Shown here: piece after piece, positions 2,872-23,671 of the stretch
Numbering within the stretch: the first letter of the stretch is position 1
Layout: each line of letters begins with the position of its first letter
Origin: a virus
Reading direction: 5' to 3' (one strand)
Virus genome (UHGV): UHGV-0078433
DNA length: 37,911 bases
Translations under genes and position numbers: made by a program
The notes under the pieces: generated by a model
Databases searched by the model: none
What the model was told of the DNA's origin: nothing
Seen by the model: only the letters and a program-made list of their open reading frames with translations

Positions 2872-5358
2872 CTACTTTGCTTCGAGATTTCCCACTCGTT
2901 CAGCCAGAGCCTCAAACTGCGATAGCAGCCTTTGATGATTACGACGATGAAGGGCAGCCTCCATCACTAATGCCTCCTCATATCGAATGCCATAGCGTGA
3001 TCCCGCTTCAACCGCCGGAACTACTACATCGCCAGTCTCTTCATCAAGAACTTCTGGTGAGCTTTCCCACTTGTCATAACAGAAGAAAGCAAACTGGTGA
3101 GGATCAAGTCCATGACGGATAAACGCTTCTTGCGCACGCTGGGCAATAATGCCGACATGCCAACGGGCTCCATCATCTCCCTTTGCCTCTATACGGTCAA
3201 TGAACTGGAACTGCACGAAATCTACTTCCGCCCAGGCATCCAGAATATCATCTGCGTACGGCGCTTCCATTAACCGTGAATCTGTCGTTTGGACGGGTTC
3301 GAGAGAACCACGAGCCAGCATCACTGGACGCGATTTTTGCCTTTCATCGGAGGTGACAGTATACGCAGCCTGAGTGAATCCGCCCGCAAATGGACTTGAA
3401 CTGGTACCAACAGTTCTGGTGTTAGCGGCGCTGGGCTGGATATTGCCGTTTACGCTCATGTTGGTGTTGATATTTACGACAGCAGAAGCAAAGCGTGCAA
3501 CTTCAGTACCGGCCGACGCTTCAGTTGATGAGACGTAGAGGCCGACAGCATTTTTACTAAGGACTGCGGTTCGGGCAAATCCACTAGAATCGCGGATCTC
3601 TCCGAGCCCAACTTGATAATCGTCAGACTGCGGGCCGGTAACGTTAGTGATGCAATGGAATACGCCACCCATTTGGTTAAACGGATCTGTCACGGATTCA
3701 AGATGAAGGCCATCTATAATGATCTTCCCGGTATTGCTACCCCCTGACTCTATGCCTACAGGGCAATTCCTTAACGTCACGTTGGTTAGTTTTTGATATT
3801 TCCTGTTCAGGCGTAAGGCAACATTGGTGTCTCTACACACAATATTGGTTACAGAACACGCCTCTGCATCACCAAACTGCCGATCACTGGCTCCGGAGGC
3901 TGTTGTTGTCTGGTATCCGGTTATTGCGTTAGCGCACTGAATATTTGATCCGTTGCAATATCGCTCCTCAATCCACACTGAAGCCCCAATTCTTCCGCCA
4001 TCATATCCGAGACATGATATATTGCTGTAATTGACGAATGGGGATTTAATATGGAGCCCGATGATGTCTGAATCAGTGGATTTAAATCGGTTCTGAATGA
4101 CTGTGATGTTTGTAACATCACTCCATACACCGCCAGTTCCACGACTGACGGTATCGCCAATGATCCCCTGCTTGATACGGACGCCAGCGCCGGGCGCTCC
4201 GACGTTACCAAAGTCTGACACATAAACGTTCGATACCTTCGGCGCCAATGACATTACGTCAACGCCTGCCCAAGGGTGGGCTGGCTCGTCAAGTTGCCCG
4301 AAGTTGAAAACGAAGATGTTATTTAATTGAAACGCGCGACTGACAGACCCATTATCCTTAATGTCGATACCATCTGCGCCGGTGTTTTCAGACCAGAATC
4401 CGTCGATGCTGCAGCCCTTATACCCGCCATTCTGAAGACCCAAGGCATAATGAGAGCAGTTCTTTACCTTGAGGCCGCGAATTGTAAGCCCCTCGATTCC
4501 TGCTCCGACAATGCCTTCAGTTTGCCGGGCGTAAGGAGTACCATTCCATAAGTAATTCCCGTCGATACAAATATCTTGAAGGCCGACGCCCCTTACTTTT
4601 GTGGTGCCGTTTTCGAGCGGTGGCTTTGACCACTGTATTACCCCATATGCAGCATCTGTGTTGTAAGCTCTTATAGTAGTAGAGTTCCATCCCTGCCCAC
4701 GGAGAATAATGTTGTCAAATGGGATGCGCAAAGCAGCAACGTTTAACGTTGCGTTGGCAGAGCTAAATTCAGTCGGATCCTGATGCACCATGTATAAGGG
4801 CCGCGGGAATACAATCGTGCCCCCGCCGGCTGCACTGAGTTCCTGCGCCTTCTGCATTATCAGTCTTGCGTTCTGCAGGGCGACAACCTGGCTAACAACC
4901 CCAGGGATTACGCCAAATGAATCAGCGGTTATTTCAATGCCACCAATTAATGACGAGCCGGTACTGGAGCTTAATCTCTGGACAAAAGAAAACGGATCAA
5001 CCAGGGAGCAATTTTCAAAATAGTATTGCTGAGCCCCATAAGCATCGTAAACAGCCATGCTGTAATCACTTTCAGTGACTATGGTTACAACCTGGCCATT
5101 ATATACTGGGTAACCTGAGGAATTAATTTTAACTGGCTGGCTGATCTGCACCAGGGAGCCATTTTCATTCCTGAAATAAACCGCTACCCTATTGGCTGGA
5201 TTTGTTGGATCCGTGTCAGGAACACCAACATAAATATTACCGTTTGCGATAGCTTTAAAGCTTCTCGGCGTAATAAATGGGATGTACGGCATTGTTACTT
5301 GCTGGTTGGCAATGATATCTGGCATTTGCTGTTCTCCAGGTGCAGAAAAGCCGCACAA
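2872..5358 (-). CDS. Tailspike: P22 gp9-like head-binding N-domain, beta-helix depolymerase-like centre, C-terminal self-cleaving chaperone (S74-type) domain
   Basis: N-terminal ~110 aa resemble P22 tailspike N-terminus (recall); repetitive beta-helix-like middle; SDERQK motif followed by ~150-aa chaperone-like tail. Confidence 0.85.
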   Translation of the reverse strand: MCGFSAPGEQQMPDIIANQQVTMPYIPFITPRSFKAIANGNIYVGVPDTDPTNPANRVAVYFRNENGSLVQISQPVKINSSGYPVYNGQVVTIVTESDYSMAVYDAYGAQQYYFENCSLVDPFSFVQRLSSSTGSSLIGGIEITADSFGVIPGVVSQVVALQNARLIMQKAQELSAAGGGTIVFPRPLYMVHQDPTEFSSANATLNVAALRIPFDNIILRGQGWNSTTIRAYNTDAAYGVIQWSKPPLENGTTKVRGVGLQDICIDGNYLWNGTPYARQTEGIVGAGIEGLTIRGLKVKNCSHYALGLQNGGYKGCSIDGFWSENTGADGIDIKDNGSVSRAFQLNNIFVFNFGQLDEPAHPWAGVDVMSLAPKVSNVYVSDFGNVGAPGAGVRIKQGIIGDTVSRGTGGVWSDVTNITVIQNRFKSTDSDIIGLHIKSPFVNYSNISCLGYDGGRIGASVWIEERYCNGSNIQCANAITGYQTTTASGASDRQFGDAEACSVTNIVCRDTNVALRLNRKYQKLTNVTLRNCPVGIESGGSNTGKIIIDGLHLESVTDPFNQMGGVFHCITNVTGPQSDDYQVGLGEIRDSSGFARTAVLSKNAVGLYVSSTEASAGTEVARFASAVVNINTNMSVNGNIQPSAANTRTVGTSSSPFAGGFTQAAYTVTSDERQKSRPVMLARGSLEPVQTTDSRLMEAPYADDILDAWAEVDFVQFQFIDRIEAKGDDGARWHVGIIAQRAQEAFIRHGLDPHQFAFFCYDKWESSPEVLDEETGDVVVPAVEAGSRYGIRYEEALVMEAALHRRNHQRLLSQFEALAERVGNLEAK

Positions 5359-5437
5359 GCTAAAACTTGCGCAGCGTGGCTACGGTTAGTTTTTTGTGAT
5401 AAAACAACTTTTTCGGAAGTTATTTTGTTCGCTTTTC

Positions 5438-5460
5438 GACCTACACTTTTTGTGTAGGTC
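5438..5460. promoter_or_regulatory. Perfect palindrome GACCTACAC-TTTTT-GTGTAGGTC, candidate operator for the adjacent Mnt-like repressor
   Basis: 9-bp arms, 5-nt spacer, between tailspike start and mnt start; no U-tract on either strand so not an intrinsic terminator. Confidence 0.35.
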
Positions 5461-5583
5461 TCTCCTTCAAGCTCATTGCCTAAGCGTGGCTACGGTTGGT
5501 ATTTGTTGCATACCGAGACGGTACCATTGTTGATTTGTACAGTAGGTTTTACGATGCCATTCCACCCATTTGGTGAGGCATTG

Positions 5584-5847
5584 ATGATGTACAGCAAATA
5601 CGATGAGGCGCAGTTCCACTTGAGGCTTACGCACGAGTTGCACGCTAAGATTAAGCAGCGTGCGAAGATGAATAACAGGTCGCTGAACTCAGAGATAATT
5701 GCAGCGATTGAAGAATCATTGGATAAACAAAGCTCTGCATCAGTTTACATTGACGATGCAGAGCGTATGGCAGAACAACAATCTGATATGGTTAAGAAAA
5801 TTGTCTTTGATACGCTCAAGGAGCTATATAAAAAAGACTGCAACTAA
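5584..5847 (+). CDS. mnt: Mnt-like ribbon-helix-helix repressor (Arc/MetJ family)
   Basis: FHLRLTHELHAKIKQRAKMNNRSLNSEII and C-terminal DAERMAEQQSDMVKKIVFDTLKELYKK resemble P22 Mnt (recall); start set at internal MMYSKYDE rather than track start 5476. Confidence 0.75.
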   Translation: MMYSKYDEAQFHLRLTHELHAKIKQRAKMNNRSLNSEIIAAIEESLDKQSSASVYIDDAERMAEQQSDMVKKIVFDTLKELYKKDCN

Positions 5848-15793: not shown

Positions 15794-17992
15794 TTACTGC
15801 TGTGGTTGTTGCTGAGTTGATTTTTGCAGGATGCTGCTGATGCCCATGCGCTGCGCATGGCCCTGCGCCTGACTCTTCAGGACAAGCTCTGCATCAGCAC
15901 GGGCATTATCTCCTTGCTGTTGCTGGAACTGTCCGAGCAGTTTCAGCGCCTCACGGATATCAGATTTTTGCTGGCTATCGGCAGATGCGAGGATTTTCAC
16001 AACATTTGCCGCTGCAACCTGAGCATCAGTCTGTGCCTGGAATGCTTTAACCTGAATGGCTGCCTGTTCGTTCTGCGCTTTCTGCAATTCAGCCTGACCA
16101 GCAAGAAGCTGACCTTGCGCTGCAACCATAGCCGGATCTGGCTGACTGGCCTGTTGTTGTTTCGCCTGCTCAACCATTTGCTGTTCTTCAGGCGTTCTCG
16201 GCTTGATAACGCCAGACAGAAGCAACTGATTGCGGTTGTATTCTTTAAGGTCGCCCATCCCTTCGCCGTCCATATTGTCGAGAATCATCGACGATACAAG
16301 GTCGTGCTTCGGCGTCCCTGGCGGGATAAGTGCCAGCATGGAAAGTAACGACTTAACCGTTGCATCACGGCGAGTAGCGAACGACTGACCGACATCGACA
16401 GTCACTTCGTAGTTACCCTGCGAAAGGTCGTTAAGCGCGATAACCTGCCCTGTCTGACGGTCAACCACTTCACCAGTCATCAGCGCCACGTCATCGCTGC
16501 CGTCCTCATTAACGATACGCATCGGCGTATCGCTGCCATAGACTTCACGCGCCATAGAAAGCCACACAACGCCAGCGCGACGCATGGATTTAGCCATGTT
16601 GTCCATGTAGATATAGGACTGCGTATCCATCCGGTTAAAGATGCTATCAACGGTATCGGTGGCGACGTTGCTCGGCATGTTCTCAAGCTGCGACGCACCT
16701 GTAATTTGCTGAATAGCCGTTCCGGTGTACTGCAATAGCCCGGCAAGAGCTGGAGGCATTTGTGTCGGAGGTGTATAACTGCTGACCTGAGCCTGCGCAG
16801 TAATATCTCCGTTTTTGTTTTTCAGACTGACCATCGGCAGGAACGCCGGGCGCTTTTTGTTGCGCTCCGCCCAATGAGTGGCAAGAGGACCAGGAATCAT
16901 GTCAACATCAACTACAGGAATGCCATCACCGCCAGCCTGAGTGGCGTTATCTGCAATCATGGAAACCATCAGGTTCTCAAGACGCTGTGCATCCATCGCT
17001 TTTGCTGCGTGGCCTTCGATTCGCTCCTGATTATCAACAAATGAGCGACGCCCATATACCGGGATGAGAGGAATATGTTCGCCCGGAATACGCTTCGGTT
17101 CTTCCAGCCATTCAGCGCCAGACAGAAGACCGCAATAAACTCGGCGCTTCTTCACCGTTCGCTCGCCAATCAGTTCGAATGCACCATCGGTCAGCTCGTC
17201 GACAATATCTTTGATTTGCTCTTCATCATAGATTGCCGTTTCTCCGCTGACAGGGTTACGCCATGCTGTGAGCTTCACCTTCTCTATGCGGACTTCGTAG
17301 TAACGTCCAACATAGATGGCATCTGGCGTTGACCAGTCATACTGAGTACCAGTGTCATCACGAGAAAGGCTTGCCGCGATGGAATCAGGGTATTCAGCCT
17401 CGAACGCTTTAGGCGTCATGGAGAACATTTCCATAGCCCACATAGCATCAGAGCGGTCATATTGCTTGCTGTCCTGATCGAAGAAGACGCATGTCGCCGG
17501 GTCGTAAACAGGAAGAAGGCTGATGCGCCGCTGCTCATTACTAGGATCCATTTCATCTTCGTAATCGGCACACATGCGGAAACAACCGAATCCGCCCGTT
17601 ACGGCATCATCAAATGCGTTATCACACGCTTCGCCACCGGATGTTTCCTGATAGTCAGCGCGGAATTTGCCGTTCATCTTTTCGGCTAACGCTTCCGATG
17701 CCTTATCGTCCTTCGGCCTGAATTTAACGCTTATGCGATTCTGTCGATACTCGCCAATGATGCGATCACATTCACGGGCAATCTTATTCAGTTCAAAGCG
17801 CGGATAATGCTCAAACCTGCCTTCATCAAATGAGTAACCAGCGTTTGTGCTGCCTTCCCACTGTGCGCCGGATACCCGGACGAAACGTTGAGCCTCAATA
17901 ATCTGCTCACGCATATCCTGCGTTGCTGACCAGGCATTATCAAAGTTGCACAGCACCTTGCGATGCCAGTCAGTCATCTTTTTTTCTGCCAT
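15794..17992 (-). CDS. Portal protein, P22 gp1-like
   Basis: 732 aa between terminase and scaffold; Gln-rich C-terminal barrel-like tail. Confidence 0.9.
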   Translation of the reverse strand: MAEKKMTDWHRKVLCNFDNAWSATQDMREQIIEAQRFVRVSGAQWEGSTNAGYSFDEGRFEHYPRFELNKIARECDRIIGEYRQNRISVKFRPKDDKASEALAEKMNGKFRADYQETSGGEACDNAFDDAVTGGFGCFRMCADYEDEMDPSNEQRRISLLPVYDPATCVFFDQDSKQYDRSDAMWAMEMFSMTPKAFEAEYPDSIAASLSRDDTGTQYDWSTPDAIYVGRYYEVRIEKVKLTAWRNPVSGETAIYDEEQIKDIVDELTDGAFELIGERTVKKRRVYCGLLSGAEWLEEPKRIPGEHIPLIPVYGRRSFVDNQERIEGHAAKAMDAQRLENLMVSMIADNATQAGGDGIPVVDVDMIPGPLATHWAERNKKRPAFLPMVSLKNKNGDITAQAQVSSYTPPTQMPPALAGLLQYTGTAIQQITGASQLENMPSNVATDTVDSIFNRMDTQSYIYMDNMAKSMRRAGVVWLSMAREVYGSDTPMRIVNEDGSDDVALMTGEVVDRQTGQVIALNDLSQGNYEVTVDVGQSFATRRDATVKSLLSMLALIPPGTPKHDLVSSMILDNMDGEGMGDLKEYNRNQLLLSGVIKPRTPEEQQMVEQAKQQQASQPDPAMVAAQGQLLAGQAELQKAQNEQAAIQVKAFQAQTDAQVAAANVVKILASADSQQKSDIREALKLLGQFQQQQGDNARADAELVLKSQAQGHAQRMGISSILQKSTQQQPQQ

Positions 17993-21875: not shown

Positions 21876-22348
21876 ACCTCAATCTCTCTGACCGTTCCGC
21901 CAGCCTCTTTGAATTTTGCAATCAGACTATCAGCCTTATGCTCGAACTGACCATAACCAGCGCCCGGCAATGAAGCCCAGATATTGCTGCAACGGTCGAT
22001 AGCCTGACGAATATCACCGCGATCAATCATCGGTAAAGCGCCACGCTCTTTAATCTGTTGCAGTGCCACAGCGTCCTGGCTTTTCGGAGAGAAGTCTTTC
22101 AGGCCAAGCTGCTTACGGTAGGCATCCCACCAACGGGAAAGAAGCTGGTAACGTCCGGCTGCTGTTGATTTGAGTTTGGGGTTTAGCGTGACAAGTTTGC
22201 GAGGGTGATCGGAGTAATCAGTGAATAGCTCTCCGCCAACAATGACGTCATAACCATGATTTCTGGTTTTCTGCCGTCCGTTATCAGTTCCCTCTGACCA
22301 CGCCAGCATATCGAGGAACGCCTTACGTTGATTATTGATTTCCACCAT
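21872..22348 (-). CDS. R: Endolysin, lambda R-type lytic transglycosylase
   Basis: [26 protein letters not shown]... essentially as I recall lambda R. Confidence 0.95.
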
Positions 22349-22655
22349 CTTCTACTCCGGCTTTTTTAGCAGCGAGGCGTTTGATAAGCGAACCAATCGA
22401 GTCAGTACCGATGTAGCCGATGAACACGCTCGTTATATAAGCGAGATTGCTACTTAGTCCGGCGAAGTCGAGAAGGTCACGAATGAACCAGGCGATAATG
22501 GCGCACATCGTTGCGTCGATTACTGTTTTTGTAAACGCACCGCCATTATATCTGCCGCGAAGGTACGCCATTGCAAACGCAAGGATTGCCCCGATGCCTT
22601 GTTCCTTTGCCGCGAGAATGGCGGCTAACAGGTCATGTTTTTCTGGCATCTTCAT
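22332..22655 (-). CDS. S: Holin, lambda S (dual-start motif MKMPEK)
   Basis: Sequence essentially as I recall lambda S. Confidence 0.95.
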
Positions 22656-23182
22656 GTCTTACCCCCAATAAGGGGATTTGCTCTATTTAATTAGGAATAA
22701 GGTCGATTACTGATAGAACAAATCCAGGCTACTGTGTTTAGTAATCAGATTTGTTCGTGACCGATATGCACGGGCAAAACGGCAGGAGGTTGTTAGCGCG
22801 ACCTCCTGTCACCCGCTTTCACGAAGATCATGTGTAGAAGGCCGCAGCATAACTATCACTGATGAATTCAGGACATCCAGTGGCTACGGCTCAGTTTGGA
22901 TTGTGGCGACCGGTGCTGATCTCCGGTTTGCTGCAACTGCCTACAGCGGGCTACGTGGCCACACCGAATCCAGCGAAAGATTCTTGCCCTTACACATCAG
23001 CCTGTGCATTCACCACAACGATAAGAGCACTGCGCGGCACCTTTCACCAATTCCGCGAGGTCTGAGGGTTCAATGCTCTTGCCTGTTGTGCAAACAAAAA
23101 AAGCCACCGTTGCAACTTAAGAGTCACTAACGGCAGCTTATGCGAATAGTGTTGCTCATTTGCTCAATGATGTCAACACGTT

Positions 23183-23671
23183 CTACGCTACATGTTTAAT
23201 TTTCTCTACACGTTTCCGGTTTTTAAACGCACTATCCAGAACCGGGTAAATCATAAACAACGAGGCATTGAGGATTTCGTCAACTTCCCGACGACAGGTT
23301 GCGAGCGATGGTTTTTGAATGCGCCCGCCGCCCCGGCATAACATCTTGCGAGGTCTTGCGACGCGATGATAGTAAGATGCAATGGCGTGCTTGGAAGAAC
23401 CGTGGGCGTAGTAGCTGAGGAGGATGCCAAAGGCTTTCTTGTCAATGTACATGACGGAATCGACGACCTGAGAAATCAACATTCCATCATCATCATTGCA
23501 CATCGGCCTTGTCATAACTCTTCCCGGCTCTACGCTCTCCATGAACTTCGCTATTACGCTGCTCATGCGCTTTTCAAGACGACCTGAATAAACCCATGCT
23601 CCCCACAGTTCAAGCCAGCCATTCAGCCAATCGTGCTGCTCTTTGGTGAGGTTTAGTTCTCTTATGCTCAT
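23183..23671 (-). CDS. Late-gene antiterminator Q-like protein
   Basis: 162-aa ORF between NinH and the ~530-bp leader before S; no zinc-finger of lambda Q visible, so a different Q family. Confidence 0.65.
   Translation of the reverse strand: MSIRELNLTKEQHDWLNGWLELWGAWVYSGRLEKRMSSVIAKFMESVEPGRVMTRPMCNDDDGMLISQVVDSVMYIDKKAFGILLSYYAHGSSKHAIASYYHRVARPRKMLCRGGGRIQKPSLATCRREVDEILNASLFMIYPVLDSAFKNRKRVEKIKHVA

What the first reader, a model, noticed from the sequence alone, without database searches (positions are those of the whole stretch)
5373..5497. Recurring motif AGCGTGGCTACGGTT flanking a perfect palindrome, with a third copy in the Q-S leader
A 15-bp direct repeat occurs at 5373-5387 and 5483-5497, both followed by T-rich sequence, and brackets the GACCTACAC-TTTTT-GTGTAGGTC palindrome. 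The 10-mer GTGGCTACGG occurs again at 22880-22889 in the same orientation, with a similar AGTTT-containing flank, inside the late leader between Q and S. Three copies of a 10-mer in 38 kb are unlikely by chance. It could be a late-transcription or Q-related element, a conserved module-boundary sequence, or a protein-binding site.
Basis: seen in the sequence. Interest (0 to 1): 0.45.

Follow-up and report, generated by a model that had tools for sequence, protein, structure and literature searches.

The report
Tailspike leader repeat flanking gene relic
The repeated 15-mer is the edge of a conserved non-coding joint just upstream of the tailspike gene of P22-like phages; here it is duplicated on both sides of a 95-bp leftover of an anti-repressor gene, an ordinary scar of phage gene shuffling, although the palindrome inside the leftover is unusually well conserved.

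Summary
In detail: AGCGTGGCTACGGTT lies at 5373-5387 and 5483-5497, the 9+5+9 palindrome at 5438-5460, and GTGGCTACGG at 22880-22889.

The window is a P22-like phage whose late genes are on the minus strand, so the element lies in the tailspike mRNA leader. The 127-bp block 5370-5496 is about 95% identical to the P22 ant-gene 9 spacer.

In most relatives the motif (RNA sense ACCGTAGCCAYGCTGCGGCGAT, "R") occurs once, about 45 nt before the tailspike ATG. It sits where conserved leader meets variable "ant moron" content; CUS-3 annotates this spacer as a boundary sequence.

Here, in P22 and in a few prophages, R is duplicated around a relic of a PHROG-1726 anti-repressor gene (tblastn E=1.5e-5).

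The palindrome is that gene family's own codon-aligned inverted repeat. It is kept in gamma- and beta-proteobacterial prophages through compensatory, amino-acid-changing substitutions.

The third copy is the 5' arm of a lambda-type S-leader hairpin, whose 3' arm matches the second half of R. It is related non-coding sequence, not a Q site; P22 itself lacks it.

Verdict: a mosaic-joint duplication with a pseudogene relic. The function of the palindrome is unknown and is the interesting remainder.

The parts
5370..5387 (-).
   Evidence: Homologous to the single R copy that lies about 45 nt upstream of the tailspike ATG in CUS-3, JEP4 and 41/73 viral-contig loci.
5483..5497 (-). Distal copy of R; its 3' part (5475-5482, RNA sense UUAGGCAAU) has diverged
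   Evidence: aligned with the P22 distal copy.
5391..5486 (-). Relic (pseudogene fragment) of a PHROG-1726 anti-repressor gene, codons about 47-78; reads RLGNELEGETYTKSVGRKANKITSEKVVLSQK and is flanked by stops
   Evidence: tblastn of intact proteins against the whole window: the best hit is always here. E=1.5e-5 (phiKp_30, 59% over 32 aa), 1.9e-4, 3.4e-4, 7.7e-4. DNA alignment; family name.
5438..5460 (.). Perfect 9-bp inverted repeat with a 5-nt loop, inherited from the anti-repressor gene (codons E-T-Y-T-K-S-V-G)
   Evidence: Covariation in genes and relics. Relic variants with compensatory or G.U changes.
5350..5375 (-). Terminator-like hairpin GCUGCGCAAG-UUUUAG-CUUGUGCGGC followed by UUUUCUG, immediately 5' of the tailspike ribosome-binding site; its 5' arm overlaps the 3' end of proximal R
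   Evidence: The same hairpin type occurs in other tailspike leaders (L014, L015, L021, L024, L040, L042) and with different stem sequence in L020, L035, L070.
2872..5325 (-). Tailspike gene (P22 head-binding domain plus Peptidase_S74 chaperone domain); the leader serves it
5584..5847 (+). Mnt/Arc-type ribbon-helix-helix repressor gene, divergent from the tailspike leader; it gives the upstream context of the distal repeat
   Evidence: Same context with a single R in JEP4 and L047, L052, L084.
22841..22890 (-). Lambda-type S-leader hairpin. Its 5' arm GCCGUAGC holds the third copy (22880-22889) and its 3' arm GCUGCGGC (22841-22848) matches the second half of R

Best explanation
The 15-mer is the promoter-proximal end of a short conserved segment of the tailspike mRNA leader of P22-like phages. 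In RNA sense this segment, R, reads ACCGUAGCCAYGCUGCGGCGAU.

R marks the joint between the conserved tailspike leader and the highly variable 'ant moron' upstream. It is a lambdoid 'boundary sequence', a stretch of shared non-coding DNA at which homologous recombination can swap neighbouring modules.

In this phage, as in P22, R is present twice. A fragment of a PHROG-1726 anti-repressor gene was trapped between two copies by illegitimate or unequal recombination in this high-flux region. Recombination between the two copies would regenerate the single-copy form seen in CUS-3 and JEP4. The perfect palindrome is the conserved internal inverted repeat of that gene family, carried along in the fragment.

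The third copy belongs to a related non-coding module: the base of a hairpin at the upstream edge of the conserved lambda-type S leader.

Shown: the anatomy, the homologies, the positional conservation, the filled and empty forms, and the covariation of the palindrome.

Inferred: the direction of events (duplication or insertion versus deletion); that R acts as a recombination joint; and that R, the palindrome and the 5350-5375 hairpin act as RNA structures that affect termination, processing or stability of the tailspike message.
For: 1. Homology to P22. Window 5370-5496 is 94.7-95.3% identical to the P22 ant-gene 9 spacer. Homology stops at the outer ends of the two repeats. The same 127-bp block recurs at up to 97.6% identity in E. 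coli prophages that have P22-like flanks.

2. Single copy is the norm. R sits at -45 from the tailspike ATG in 41 of 73 loci, with unrelated upstream contexts: t_ant in 32, mnt in 4, other in 5. The window-identical locus L010 has R at -61 and -171.

3. Filled and empty forms exist in two contexts. P22 (filled) versus CUS-3 (empty), both behind t_ant; the window (filled) versus JEP4 (empty), both behind mnt.

4. Other filled forms. L062 has a perfect 22-bp repeat around a 56-bp relic. In L027, L057 and L059 the distal copy has decayed.

5. The insert is a gene fragment. tblastn E=1.5e-5 to 7.7e-4 against the whole window. The intact genes are PHROG 1726 'anti-repressor'.

6. The palindrome is the gene family's own inverted repeat. 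In 23 distinct intact genes, 6 of 11 pairs change on both sides and none changes on one side only.

7. Annotation and literature. The CUS-3 record calls the equivalent spacers 'boundary sequence'. The ant moron is described as a region of high genetic flux that holds degraded ant genes (PMC2629481). Boundary-sequence recombination is an established proposal (PMC3029335).

8. Third copy. It is conserved in lambda, Sf6, CUS-3 and JEP4 at the distal edge of the conserved S-leader block. The match to R is in two collinear blocks. MFE folds close the stem GCCGUAGC/GCUGCGGC.
Against: - The direction of events cannot be decided from sequence. It could be insertion with target duplication, or a once larger insert later deleted.
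- No experiment shows recombination at R.
- The relic keeps a perfect palindrome. Between P22 and this window, 2 of the 3 differences inside the relic are a compensatory pair. This suggests the relic is under selection, or is repeatedly converted from intact genes, rather than being a neutral scar.
- In S leaders the 10-mer occurs in either orientation relative to transcription. A purely RNA-level role does not predict that.
- The proposed R hairpin shows only one-sided G.U changes and no covariation beyond shuffles.
Confidence: 0.72

Rival explanations
1. The motif and the palindrome are functional RNA elements of late messages. R (CCGUAGC-CAY-GCUGCGG), the S-leader hairpin and the relic hairpin would be processing or stability signals: a 5' stem-loop left after endonucleolytic cleavage downstream of a terminator or a tRNA, protecting the S and tailspike mRNAs. 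The duplication would then be kept because it adds structure.
For: - Whole-leader folding is better than shuffles (z=-4.3).
- R pairs with a U.G wobble in the tailspike-mRNA sense but would have a C.A mismatch on the other strand. All five variable pairs change to G.U only.
- Relic palindrome variants L257 and L259 are U.G in mRNA sense.
- In Sf6-type leaders the S-leader hairpin begins about 7-8 nt after the tRNA-Thr 3' end.
Against: - No covariation supports the R hairpin.
- The palindrome in intact genes never uses G.U, which is not RNA-like.
- About 22 of 79 S leaders carry the 10-mer in the opposite orientation.
- P22 lacks it in its late leader.
- There is no Rfam match even at E<=5.
- A P22 small-RNA survey lists nothing from the ant-9 spacer (PMC13397905).
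Confidence: 0.3
2. The 15-mer is a binding site for a DNA-binding protein (phage Mnt/Arc-type repressor, another regulator, or a host factor). Two sites would bracket the palindrome and a third would lie in the Q-S leader, coordinating late expression.
For: - The core CGTGGCTACG is a near-palindrome, and some relatives have the perfect CGTAGCTACG.
- The motif occurs in both orientations in S leaders, as a DNA site could.
- A Mnt/Arc-type gene sits next to it.
Against: - Most relatives have one tailspike-leader copy, and distal copies decay freely (L027, L057, L059).
- P22 has no late-leader copy.
- The motif is found with and without an adjacent mnt, and with different Q types.
- No other copies exist in the window.
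Confidence: 0.1
3. The motif is a Q-dependent or late-promoter element (qut/QBE-like), or a signal needed for antiterminated polymerase to reach S and the tailspike.
For: All three copies lie in late-operon leaders, in the same orientation in this window.
Against: - By homology with the Sf6 annotation, the late promoter, qut site and tR' lie 200 nt or more upstream of the third copy.
- The motif goes with the lambda-type S leader, behind several unrelated upstream contexts (tRNA genes, tRNA-like relics, lambda-like sequence), not with one late-promoter region. Q types were not compared.
- P22, whose late control is well studied, lacks it in its late leader.
Confidence: 0.03
4. R-relic-R is a small mobile cassette, or R is a recombination site at which morons are inserted. 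The direct repeat would be a target duplication, and the motif would mark both moron slots of the late operon: behind tR' and in front of the tailspike.
For: - Filled and empty sites have identical flanks in two contexts.
- The 127-bp unit is shared at 95-98% identity between genomes with unrelated flanks.
- The motif lies at the downstream edge of both variable slots.
- A module of terminator plus R is found inverted in another S-leader type (score 31 versus 13.8 +/- 2.1 in shuffles, 0/1000).
Against: - The insert is a decayed fragment of a protein gene, with no terminal inverted repeats and no recombinase.
- A 22-29-bp duplication fits no known transposition mechanism.
- There is only one such unit per genome.
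- Relic ends show only 3-5 bp microhomologies (GAT, AACAA), typical of illegitimate recombination.
Confidence: 0.07

Closest known systems
Lambdoid 'boundary sequences' (linker model of Susskind and Botstein; Clark et al. 2001 for HK620; bsq1 and bsq3 features of the phage CUS-3 GenBank record CP000711)
   Same: A short conserved non-coding stretch at the joint between a conserved module (tailspike leader, S leader) and variable neighbours. The homologous CUS-3 spacers are annotated this way.
   Different: Here the joint is duplicated around a gene relic. A role in recombination is inferred, not shown.
P22 ant-gene 9 intergenic region with terminator t_ant (annotated in AF527608 / NC_002371; from memory, Berget, Poteete and Sauer 1983 on control of tail protein expression by termination)
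   Same: 127 bp are about 95% identical, including both repeats and the palindrome.
   Different: This phage has no ant, arc or t_ant. The distal repeat abuts an mnt-type gene instead, and a different terminator-like hairpin (5350-5375) precedes the tailspike.
Degraded anti-repressor genes in the 'ant moron' of P22-like phages (Villafane et al. 2008, PMC2629481)
   Same: A non-functional remnant of an anti-repressor gene between the ejection-protein genes and the tailspike, in a region of high genetic flux.
   Different: The relic is only about 32 codons long. It comes from a different anti-repressor family (PHROG 1726) than P22 ant. It sits inside the leader that P22 itself carries. I found no description of it.
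Lambda late-leader RNA between tR' and S (lambda 44,950-45,000)
   Same: The third copy is nearly identical to lambda AACCCAAACTGAGCCGTAGCCAC at lambda position 44,953, and forms the same predicted hairpin base.
   Different: No function is documented for this hairpin in the material I could read. The RNase III link is only a lead taken from a paper title.
Target-site duplications of transposable elements and MITEs
   Same: A direct repeat flanks an insert, and empty sites exist.
   Different: The repeat is 22-29 bp. The insert has no terminal inverted repeats, is a gene fragment and is single-copy.

Membership tests
Lambdoid boundary (linker) sequence | Conserved non-coding sequence at a gene or module junction, shared by phages whose adjoining sequence is unrelated | tested here: met
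   R lies at -45 in 41/73 tailspike loci, behind t_ant, mnt or other contexts. Homology with P22 and with E. coli prophages ends at the repeats.
Lambdoid boundary (linker) sequence | Annotated as such in a homologous position of a described phage | tested here: met
   CUS-3 bsq1 (ant-tailspike spacer, which contains R) and bsq3 (S leader, which contains the third copy 7 bp from its end).
Lambdoid boundary (linker) sequence | Actually mediates homologous exchange of flanking modules | not testable with these tools
   Needs crosses, or a genome-wide breakpoint analysis.
Q utilisation site (qut / Q-binding element) | Overlaps or directly follows the late promoter, upstream of tR' | tested here: not met
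   By alignment with the Sf6 annotation the third copy is about 200 nt downstream of tR'. The other two copies are 17 kb away, in the tailspike leader.
Q utilisation site (qut / Q-binding element) | Present wherever that late-control system operates | tested here: not met
   The P22 late leader has no CCGTAGCC. The motif accompanies the S-leader type behind several unrelated upstream contexts.
Intrinsic terminator | G+C-rich hairpin followed by a U run | tested here: not met
   The palindrome 5438-5460 has no U tract on either strand and is not called. The separate hairpin at 5350-5375 (minus strand) does meet the pattern.
PHROG 1726 anti-repressor gene (as a pseudogene relic) | Significant translated similarity to intact members | tested here: met
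   tblastn against the whole window gives E=1.5e-5, 1.9e-4, 3.4e-4 and 7.7e-4, all at 5391-5486 on the minus strand. Intact genes score E=2e-102 against phrog_1726.
PHROG 1726 anti-repressor gene (as a pseudogene relic) | Complete open reading frame with start and stop | tested here: not met
   Only about 32 of about 241 codons remain, bounded by stop codons, so this is a relic and not a gene.
Transposon or MITE with target-site duplication | Terminal inverted repeats, short target duplication, multiple genomic copies | tested here: not met
   There are no terminal inverted repeats. The duplication is 22-29 bp. There is one unit per genome.
Dyad-symmetric protein operator (for the palindrome) | Strict Watson-Crick dyad symmetry conserved across homologues | tested here: met
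   Across 23 distinct gene sequences, 6 of 11 pairs have double changes and none is G.U. In many sequences the symmetry reaches the centre.
Dyad-symmetric protein operator (for the palindrome) | A cognate binding protein, and usually further sites near a promoter | tested here: inconclusive
   No second site was found in any locus or in the whole P22 genome. No candidate protein was tested.
Any curated RNA family (Rfam 15) or tRNA | Covariance-model match | tested here: not met
   No hits at gathering thresholds, nor at E<=5 in either leader. ARAGORN finds no tRNA.

The most novel reading that the evidence does not exclude
The palindrome would be a previously undescribed cis-acting element. 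It is a codon-aligned, strictly Watson-Crick dyad of up to 23 bp inside PHROG-1726 anti-repressor genes of gamma- and beta-proteobacterial prophages. It is maintained by paired substitutions that change the encoded amino acids (ACC/GGT, CAC/GTG, TTT/AAA).

The dyad is kept perfect, again with a compensatory change, in the non-coding relic in front of the tailspike gene. On this reading it is a binding site for a dimeric protein, or a structure needed on both strands, that controls anti-repressor expression and, as a relic, tailspike expression.

The flanking motif R, together with its relative in the S leader, would be the joint at which such cassettes are exchanged at the two moron slots of the late operon.
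Probability: 0.3. Interest if true: 0.65.

Novelty: new member of a known kind. Interest (0 to 1): 0.4.

Why it matters
For the finding as given, little changes: it is a mosaic joint of the kind already invoked to explain how lambdoid phages swap modules, and it is not a new late-control signal.

Three points are still useful.

1. Part of the well-known P22 ant-gene 9 spacer turns out to be a fossil of a second, unrelated anti-repressor gene. Filled and empty forms of the joint give a concrete, datable example of module turnover next to the host-range gene.

2. The tailspike-leader joint and the lambda-type S-leader edge share sequence, which links the two places in the late operon where extra genes are habitually inserted.

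3. The palindrome points to a conserved nucleic-acid-level signal inside a widespread anti-repressor gene family. If it is a regulatory site, it bears on how prophage induction modules are controlled. It could be tested directly with synonymous and compensatory mutations.

Tried and rejected
- tRNA or tRNA-like gene at the third copy. ARAGORN and Rfam found nothing, although the motif follows tRNA-Thr or tRNA-like relics in relatives.
- Known RNA families in either leader: none, even at E<=5.
- Promoter for the tailspike or mnt inside 5340-5520: no consensus match.
- The palindrome as a terminator: no U tract.
- The palindrome as a P22 Mnt or Arc operator. I compared it by eye with the annotated operators. 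The half-site orientation differs, so I rejected it as unsupported.
- Further copies of the palindrome as operators elsewhere: none in the window, in any fetched locus, or in the P22 genome.
- Covariation support for the R hairpin: none.
- Derivation of R itself from the anti-repressor coding sequence. Alignments were weak; only a possible CACGC microhomology at the distal junction.
- An antisense small RNA ending at the palindrome: no promoter or U tract, and no such RNA in the P22 survey.
- Literature searches for the repeat, the palindrome or 'boundary sequences' of CUS-3 found no description. Berget et al. 1983, Clark et al. 2001, King et al. 2007 and Daniels et al. 1988 could not be read.
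- Not used, because not needed: the protein-homologue searches and structure prediction.

Full report
OBSERVATION

The 15-mer AGCGTGGCTACGGTT is present at 5373-5387 and 5483-5497 on the + strand, and nowhere else even with three mismatches. The repeat finder extends the pair to 22 nt at 91% identity with a spacing of 110, and reports the inverted repeat GACCTACAC/GTGTAGGTC at 5438-5446/5452-5460. GTGGCTACGG recurs at 22880-22889.

One exact 15-bp repeat somewhere in 38 kb is not improbable (my arithmetic: about 0.7 expected). One within about 200 bp is improbable (about 0.007 expected). The third 10-mer alone is not significant: 26% of block shuffles give an extra 10-mer drawn from the 15-mer on either strand.

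CONTEXT

The window is a P22-like phage with its late genes on the minus strand:
- the tailspike at 2872-5325 (Head_binding plus Peptidase_S74 domains);
- ejection-protein genes from 5937 onward;
- the holin S at 22332-22655;
- Q at 23183-23671.

A Mnt/Arc-type repressor gene lies on the + strand at 5584-5847. The element therefore lies in the 5' leader of the tailspike message. In RNA sense the motif reads AACCGUAGCCACGCU.

HOMOLOGY WITH P22

Window 5370-5496, which runs from one repeat to the other, is 94.7-95.3% identical to the P22 spacer between ant and gene 9. In P22 the annotated terminator t_ant lies just upstream.

P22 has the same two repeats, with CCGTAGCC at 16050 and 16160, and the same palindrome with a compensatory double change: GACCTACAA...TTGTAGGTC.

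The same 127-bp block is found at up to 97.6% identity in E. coli prophages with P22-like flanks; 43 of 5426 genomes hold some match. In all these comparisons homology ends at the repeats.

THE MOTIF IN RELATIVES

I fetched 80 viral contigs through the tailspike head-binding domain, so the sample is not biased by the motif.
- In RNA sense the conserved unit is ACCGTAGCCAYGCTGCGGCGAT, which I call R.
- R occurs once at -45 from the start codon in 41 of 73 loci with a recognisable start.
- The sequence upstream of R is t_ant in 32 of these, an mnt gene in 4, and something else in 5.
- The other 31 loci have different leaders.
- CUS-3 (behind t_ant) and JEP4 (behind mnt) have a single R.

P22 versus CUS-3, and this window versus JEP4, are therefore filled and empty versions of the same joint in two different contexts (alignment A8).

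Further filled forms exist. L062 has a perfect 22-bp direct repeat around a 56-bp insert. L027, L057 and L059 have the same insert, but the distal copy has decayed.

The CUS-3 GenBank record annotates the ant-tailspike spacer as 'bsq1; boundary sequence'. The idea that short conserved boundary sequences allow homologous exchange of modules is established in the literature (PMC3029335). The region in front of the tailspike, the 'ant moron', is described as having unusually high genetic flux and as holding degraded ant genes in some phages (PMC2629481).

THE INSERT

A sensitive DNA search matched a 44-bp core (window 5433-5476) at 97.7% identity. The matches lay inside annotated anti-repressor/KilA genes of Erwinia phage Midgardsormr38 and E. 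coli phage JEP4, and in APSE-7. A weaker 80-bp match lay in Klebsiella phage phiKp_30.

The minus strand of the window reads RLGNELEGETYTKSVGRKANKITSEKVVLSQK. tblastn of the intact proteins against the whole window puts the best hit here every time: E=1.5e-5 (59% over 32 residues), 1.9e-4, 3.4e-4 and 7.7e-4.

The intact genes belong to PHROG 1726, 'anti-repressor'. The N-terminal part that contains the homologous segment has no Pfam match.

The insert is therefore a fragment of about 32 codons, bounded by stop codons: a relic, not a gene. The shorter relics of L027, L057 and L062 read DGLDG*HYEIFVVQKPNKYQP-like sequence. Relic ends coincide with 3-5 bp microhomologies (GAT; AACAA), as expected for illegitimate recombination.

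THE PALINDROME

In the intact genes the palindrome covers the codons for E-x-Y-x-x-x-V-x, and its centre is the middle base of the fourth of these codons. I collected 76 viral loci, 19 bacterial genome loci and three phage genes. The bacterial loci come from Arsenophonus, Erwinia, Symbiopectobacterium, Sodalis, Klebsiella, Ottowia, Acidovorax, Pseudomonas and Acinetobacter.

The 23 distinct sequences keep the dyad while its sequence and the encoded amino acids change together. Examples are ACC/GGT (T...G), CAC/GTG (H...V) and TTT/AAA (F...K), and centres ACAAAAAGT versus GAAANTTTC.

Counting pairs gives the following:
- 85% of cells are paired;
- 6 of 11 pairs change on both sides;
- no pair changes on one side only, so there is no G.U;
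- slid controls give 28-48% paired.

A smaller set that includes relics gives 95.6% paired and 5 of 9 double changes.

This is selection on the nucleic acid, not on the protein. Strict Watson-Crick symmetry that often reaches the centre looks more like a double-stranded DNA site, or a structure needed on both strands, than like a simple RNA hairpin.

The relics carry the same types. The window carries type i, and P22 carries a compensated variant of it. L027 and L059 carry type ii, and L057 and L062 carry type iii. Two relic variants with U.G pairs in mRNA sense were also seen.

Between P22 and this window, two of the three differences inside the relic are the compensating pair. Either the relic hairpin is still under selection, or relics are converted from intact genes. 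There is only one such dyad per locus, and only one in the whole P22 genome, so a multi-operator arrangement is not supported. Its function remains unknown.

THE THIRD COPY

The third copy lies 234 nt upstream of S, at the distal edge of the block that is conserved among this window, JEP4, CUS-3 and Sf6. It is 7 bp inside the end of CUS-3 'bsq3'. Lambda has AACCCAAACTGAGCCGTAGCCAC at position 44,953.

Among the 79 loci analysed, which were fetched through the holin:
- 54 have CCGTAGCC at -233 to -235, behind at least five unrelated upstream contexts;
- in one of these contexts the motif begins about 7-8 nt after the 3' end of tRNA-Thr; others are tRNA-like relics.

Thirty-two nucleotides downstream, in RNA sense, lies ATGCTGCGGC, which is the second half of R. 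Only 0.4% of random 60-nt windows contain any 8-mer of that half. Minimum-energy folds of the window, lambda and Sf6 leaders all close the stem GCCGUAGC/GCUGCGGC around a variable inner hairpin. The P22/CUS-3-type tailspike leader forms the same stem with a 3-nt loop. The third copy is therefore related to R, and is not a chance match.

It is nevertheless not a Q element, for three reasons:
- by alignment with the Sf6 annotation the late promoter, qut site and tR' lie about 200 nt upstream;
- the P22 late leader lacks the motif;
- about 22 of the 79 S leaders carry the 10-mer in the opposite orientation, next to an inverted t_ant-like hairpin.

The similarity to the P22 t_ant-plus-R segment in reverse complement scores 31, against 13.8 +/- 2.1 in shuffles (0 of 1000). 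The picture is one of small non-coding modules (terminator, R, hairpin) reshuffled at the two variable slots of the late operon.

POSSIBLE RNA ROLES

The whole leader folds better than shuffles (z=-4.3). A terminator-like hairpin with a U run lies at 5350-5375, directly before the tailspike ribosome-binding site. It shares GCTGCG with proximal R and recurs, with different stem sequences, in other tailspike leaders.

R can pair as CCGUAGC-CAY-GCUGCGG with a U.G pair that would be a C.A mismatch on the other strand. Its variation is limited to G.U changes and gives no covariation signal.

There are no Rfam matches at any threshold. A recent P22 small-RNA survey lists nothing from this spacer (PMC13397905). 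A role in termination, processing or stability of the tailspike message is therefore a reasonable inference, but it is not shown.

VERDICT

- The Q-related alternative is not supported.
- The protein-binding alternative is untested.

The best description is a duplicated boundary sequence of the tailspike leader that encloses a relic of an anti-repressor gene. This is a new example of known kinds of feature. The unexpected residue is the deeply conserved, codon-aligned palindrome of the donor gene family, for which I found no description in the searchable literature.

Noticed in passing
window 5350-5375 (minus strand): Terminator-like hairpin (11 pairs, 6 G-C, loop 4, then UUUUCUG) immediately upstream of the tailspike ribosome-binding site. 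It could play the part that t_ant plays in P22, limiting tailspike expression to antiterminated late transcription. Related hairpins with different stem sequences occur in other tailspike leaders.
   Followed up: partly
window 5584-5847 (+) and upstream 5520-5542: An Mnt/Arc-type repressor gene (PF11423 plus PF03869) with no arc or ant gene next to it, so apparently an orphan regulator. Dyad-like GGTACC...TGTACA sequences lie in its upstream region, which faces the tailspike leader.
   Followed up: partly
L090-L165, L260-L278; JEP4 L004 1467-2192 (-): PHROG-1726 anti-repressor genes carry a codon-aligned, strictly Watson-Crick palindrome of up to 23 bp at codons about 55-63. It is conserved from Enterobacterales to Acinetobacter, Pseudomonas, Acidovorax and Ottowia through amino-acid-changing compensatory substitutions, with one copy per locus.
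   Followed up: yes
L188 440-580 and about 22 of 79 S-leader loci; P22 L167 15996-16085: One type of lambda-S leader holds GTGGCTACGGTG in the opposite orientation, followed by an inverted copy of a t_ant-like terminator. So a module of terminator plus R exists in both orientations at two places in late operons.
   Followed up: partly
window 22890-23090 (minus strand): The late leader between the tR' homologue and the third copy looks like decayed tRNA sequence (for example CCGGAGATCAGCACCGGTCGCCACAA). Relatives have tRNA-Asn and tRNA-Thr there, but neither ARAGORN nor Rfam calls a tRNA in the window.
   Followed up: partly
window 2872-5325 (minus strand): The tailspike combines the P22 head-binding domain with a C-terminal Peptidase_S74 (endosialidase chaperone) domain. 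Its N-terminal domain is only 54-57% identical to those of P22 and CUS-3.
   Followed up: partly
JEP4 L004 650-841: In phage JEP4 the conserved leader and the first codons of a head-binding domain (ATGACAGATATT...) lie about 190 bp upstream of the annotated tail spike gene. This suggests a remnant tailspike start in front of a replaced receptor-binding gene.
   Followed up: no
window 5324-5332 and 5591-5599: A 9-nt perfect inverted repeat, ATTTGCTGT / ACAGCAAAT, joins the tailspike start-codon region and the start of the mnt-type gene, 258 nt apart. Probably chance.
   Followed up: no
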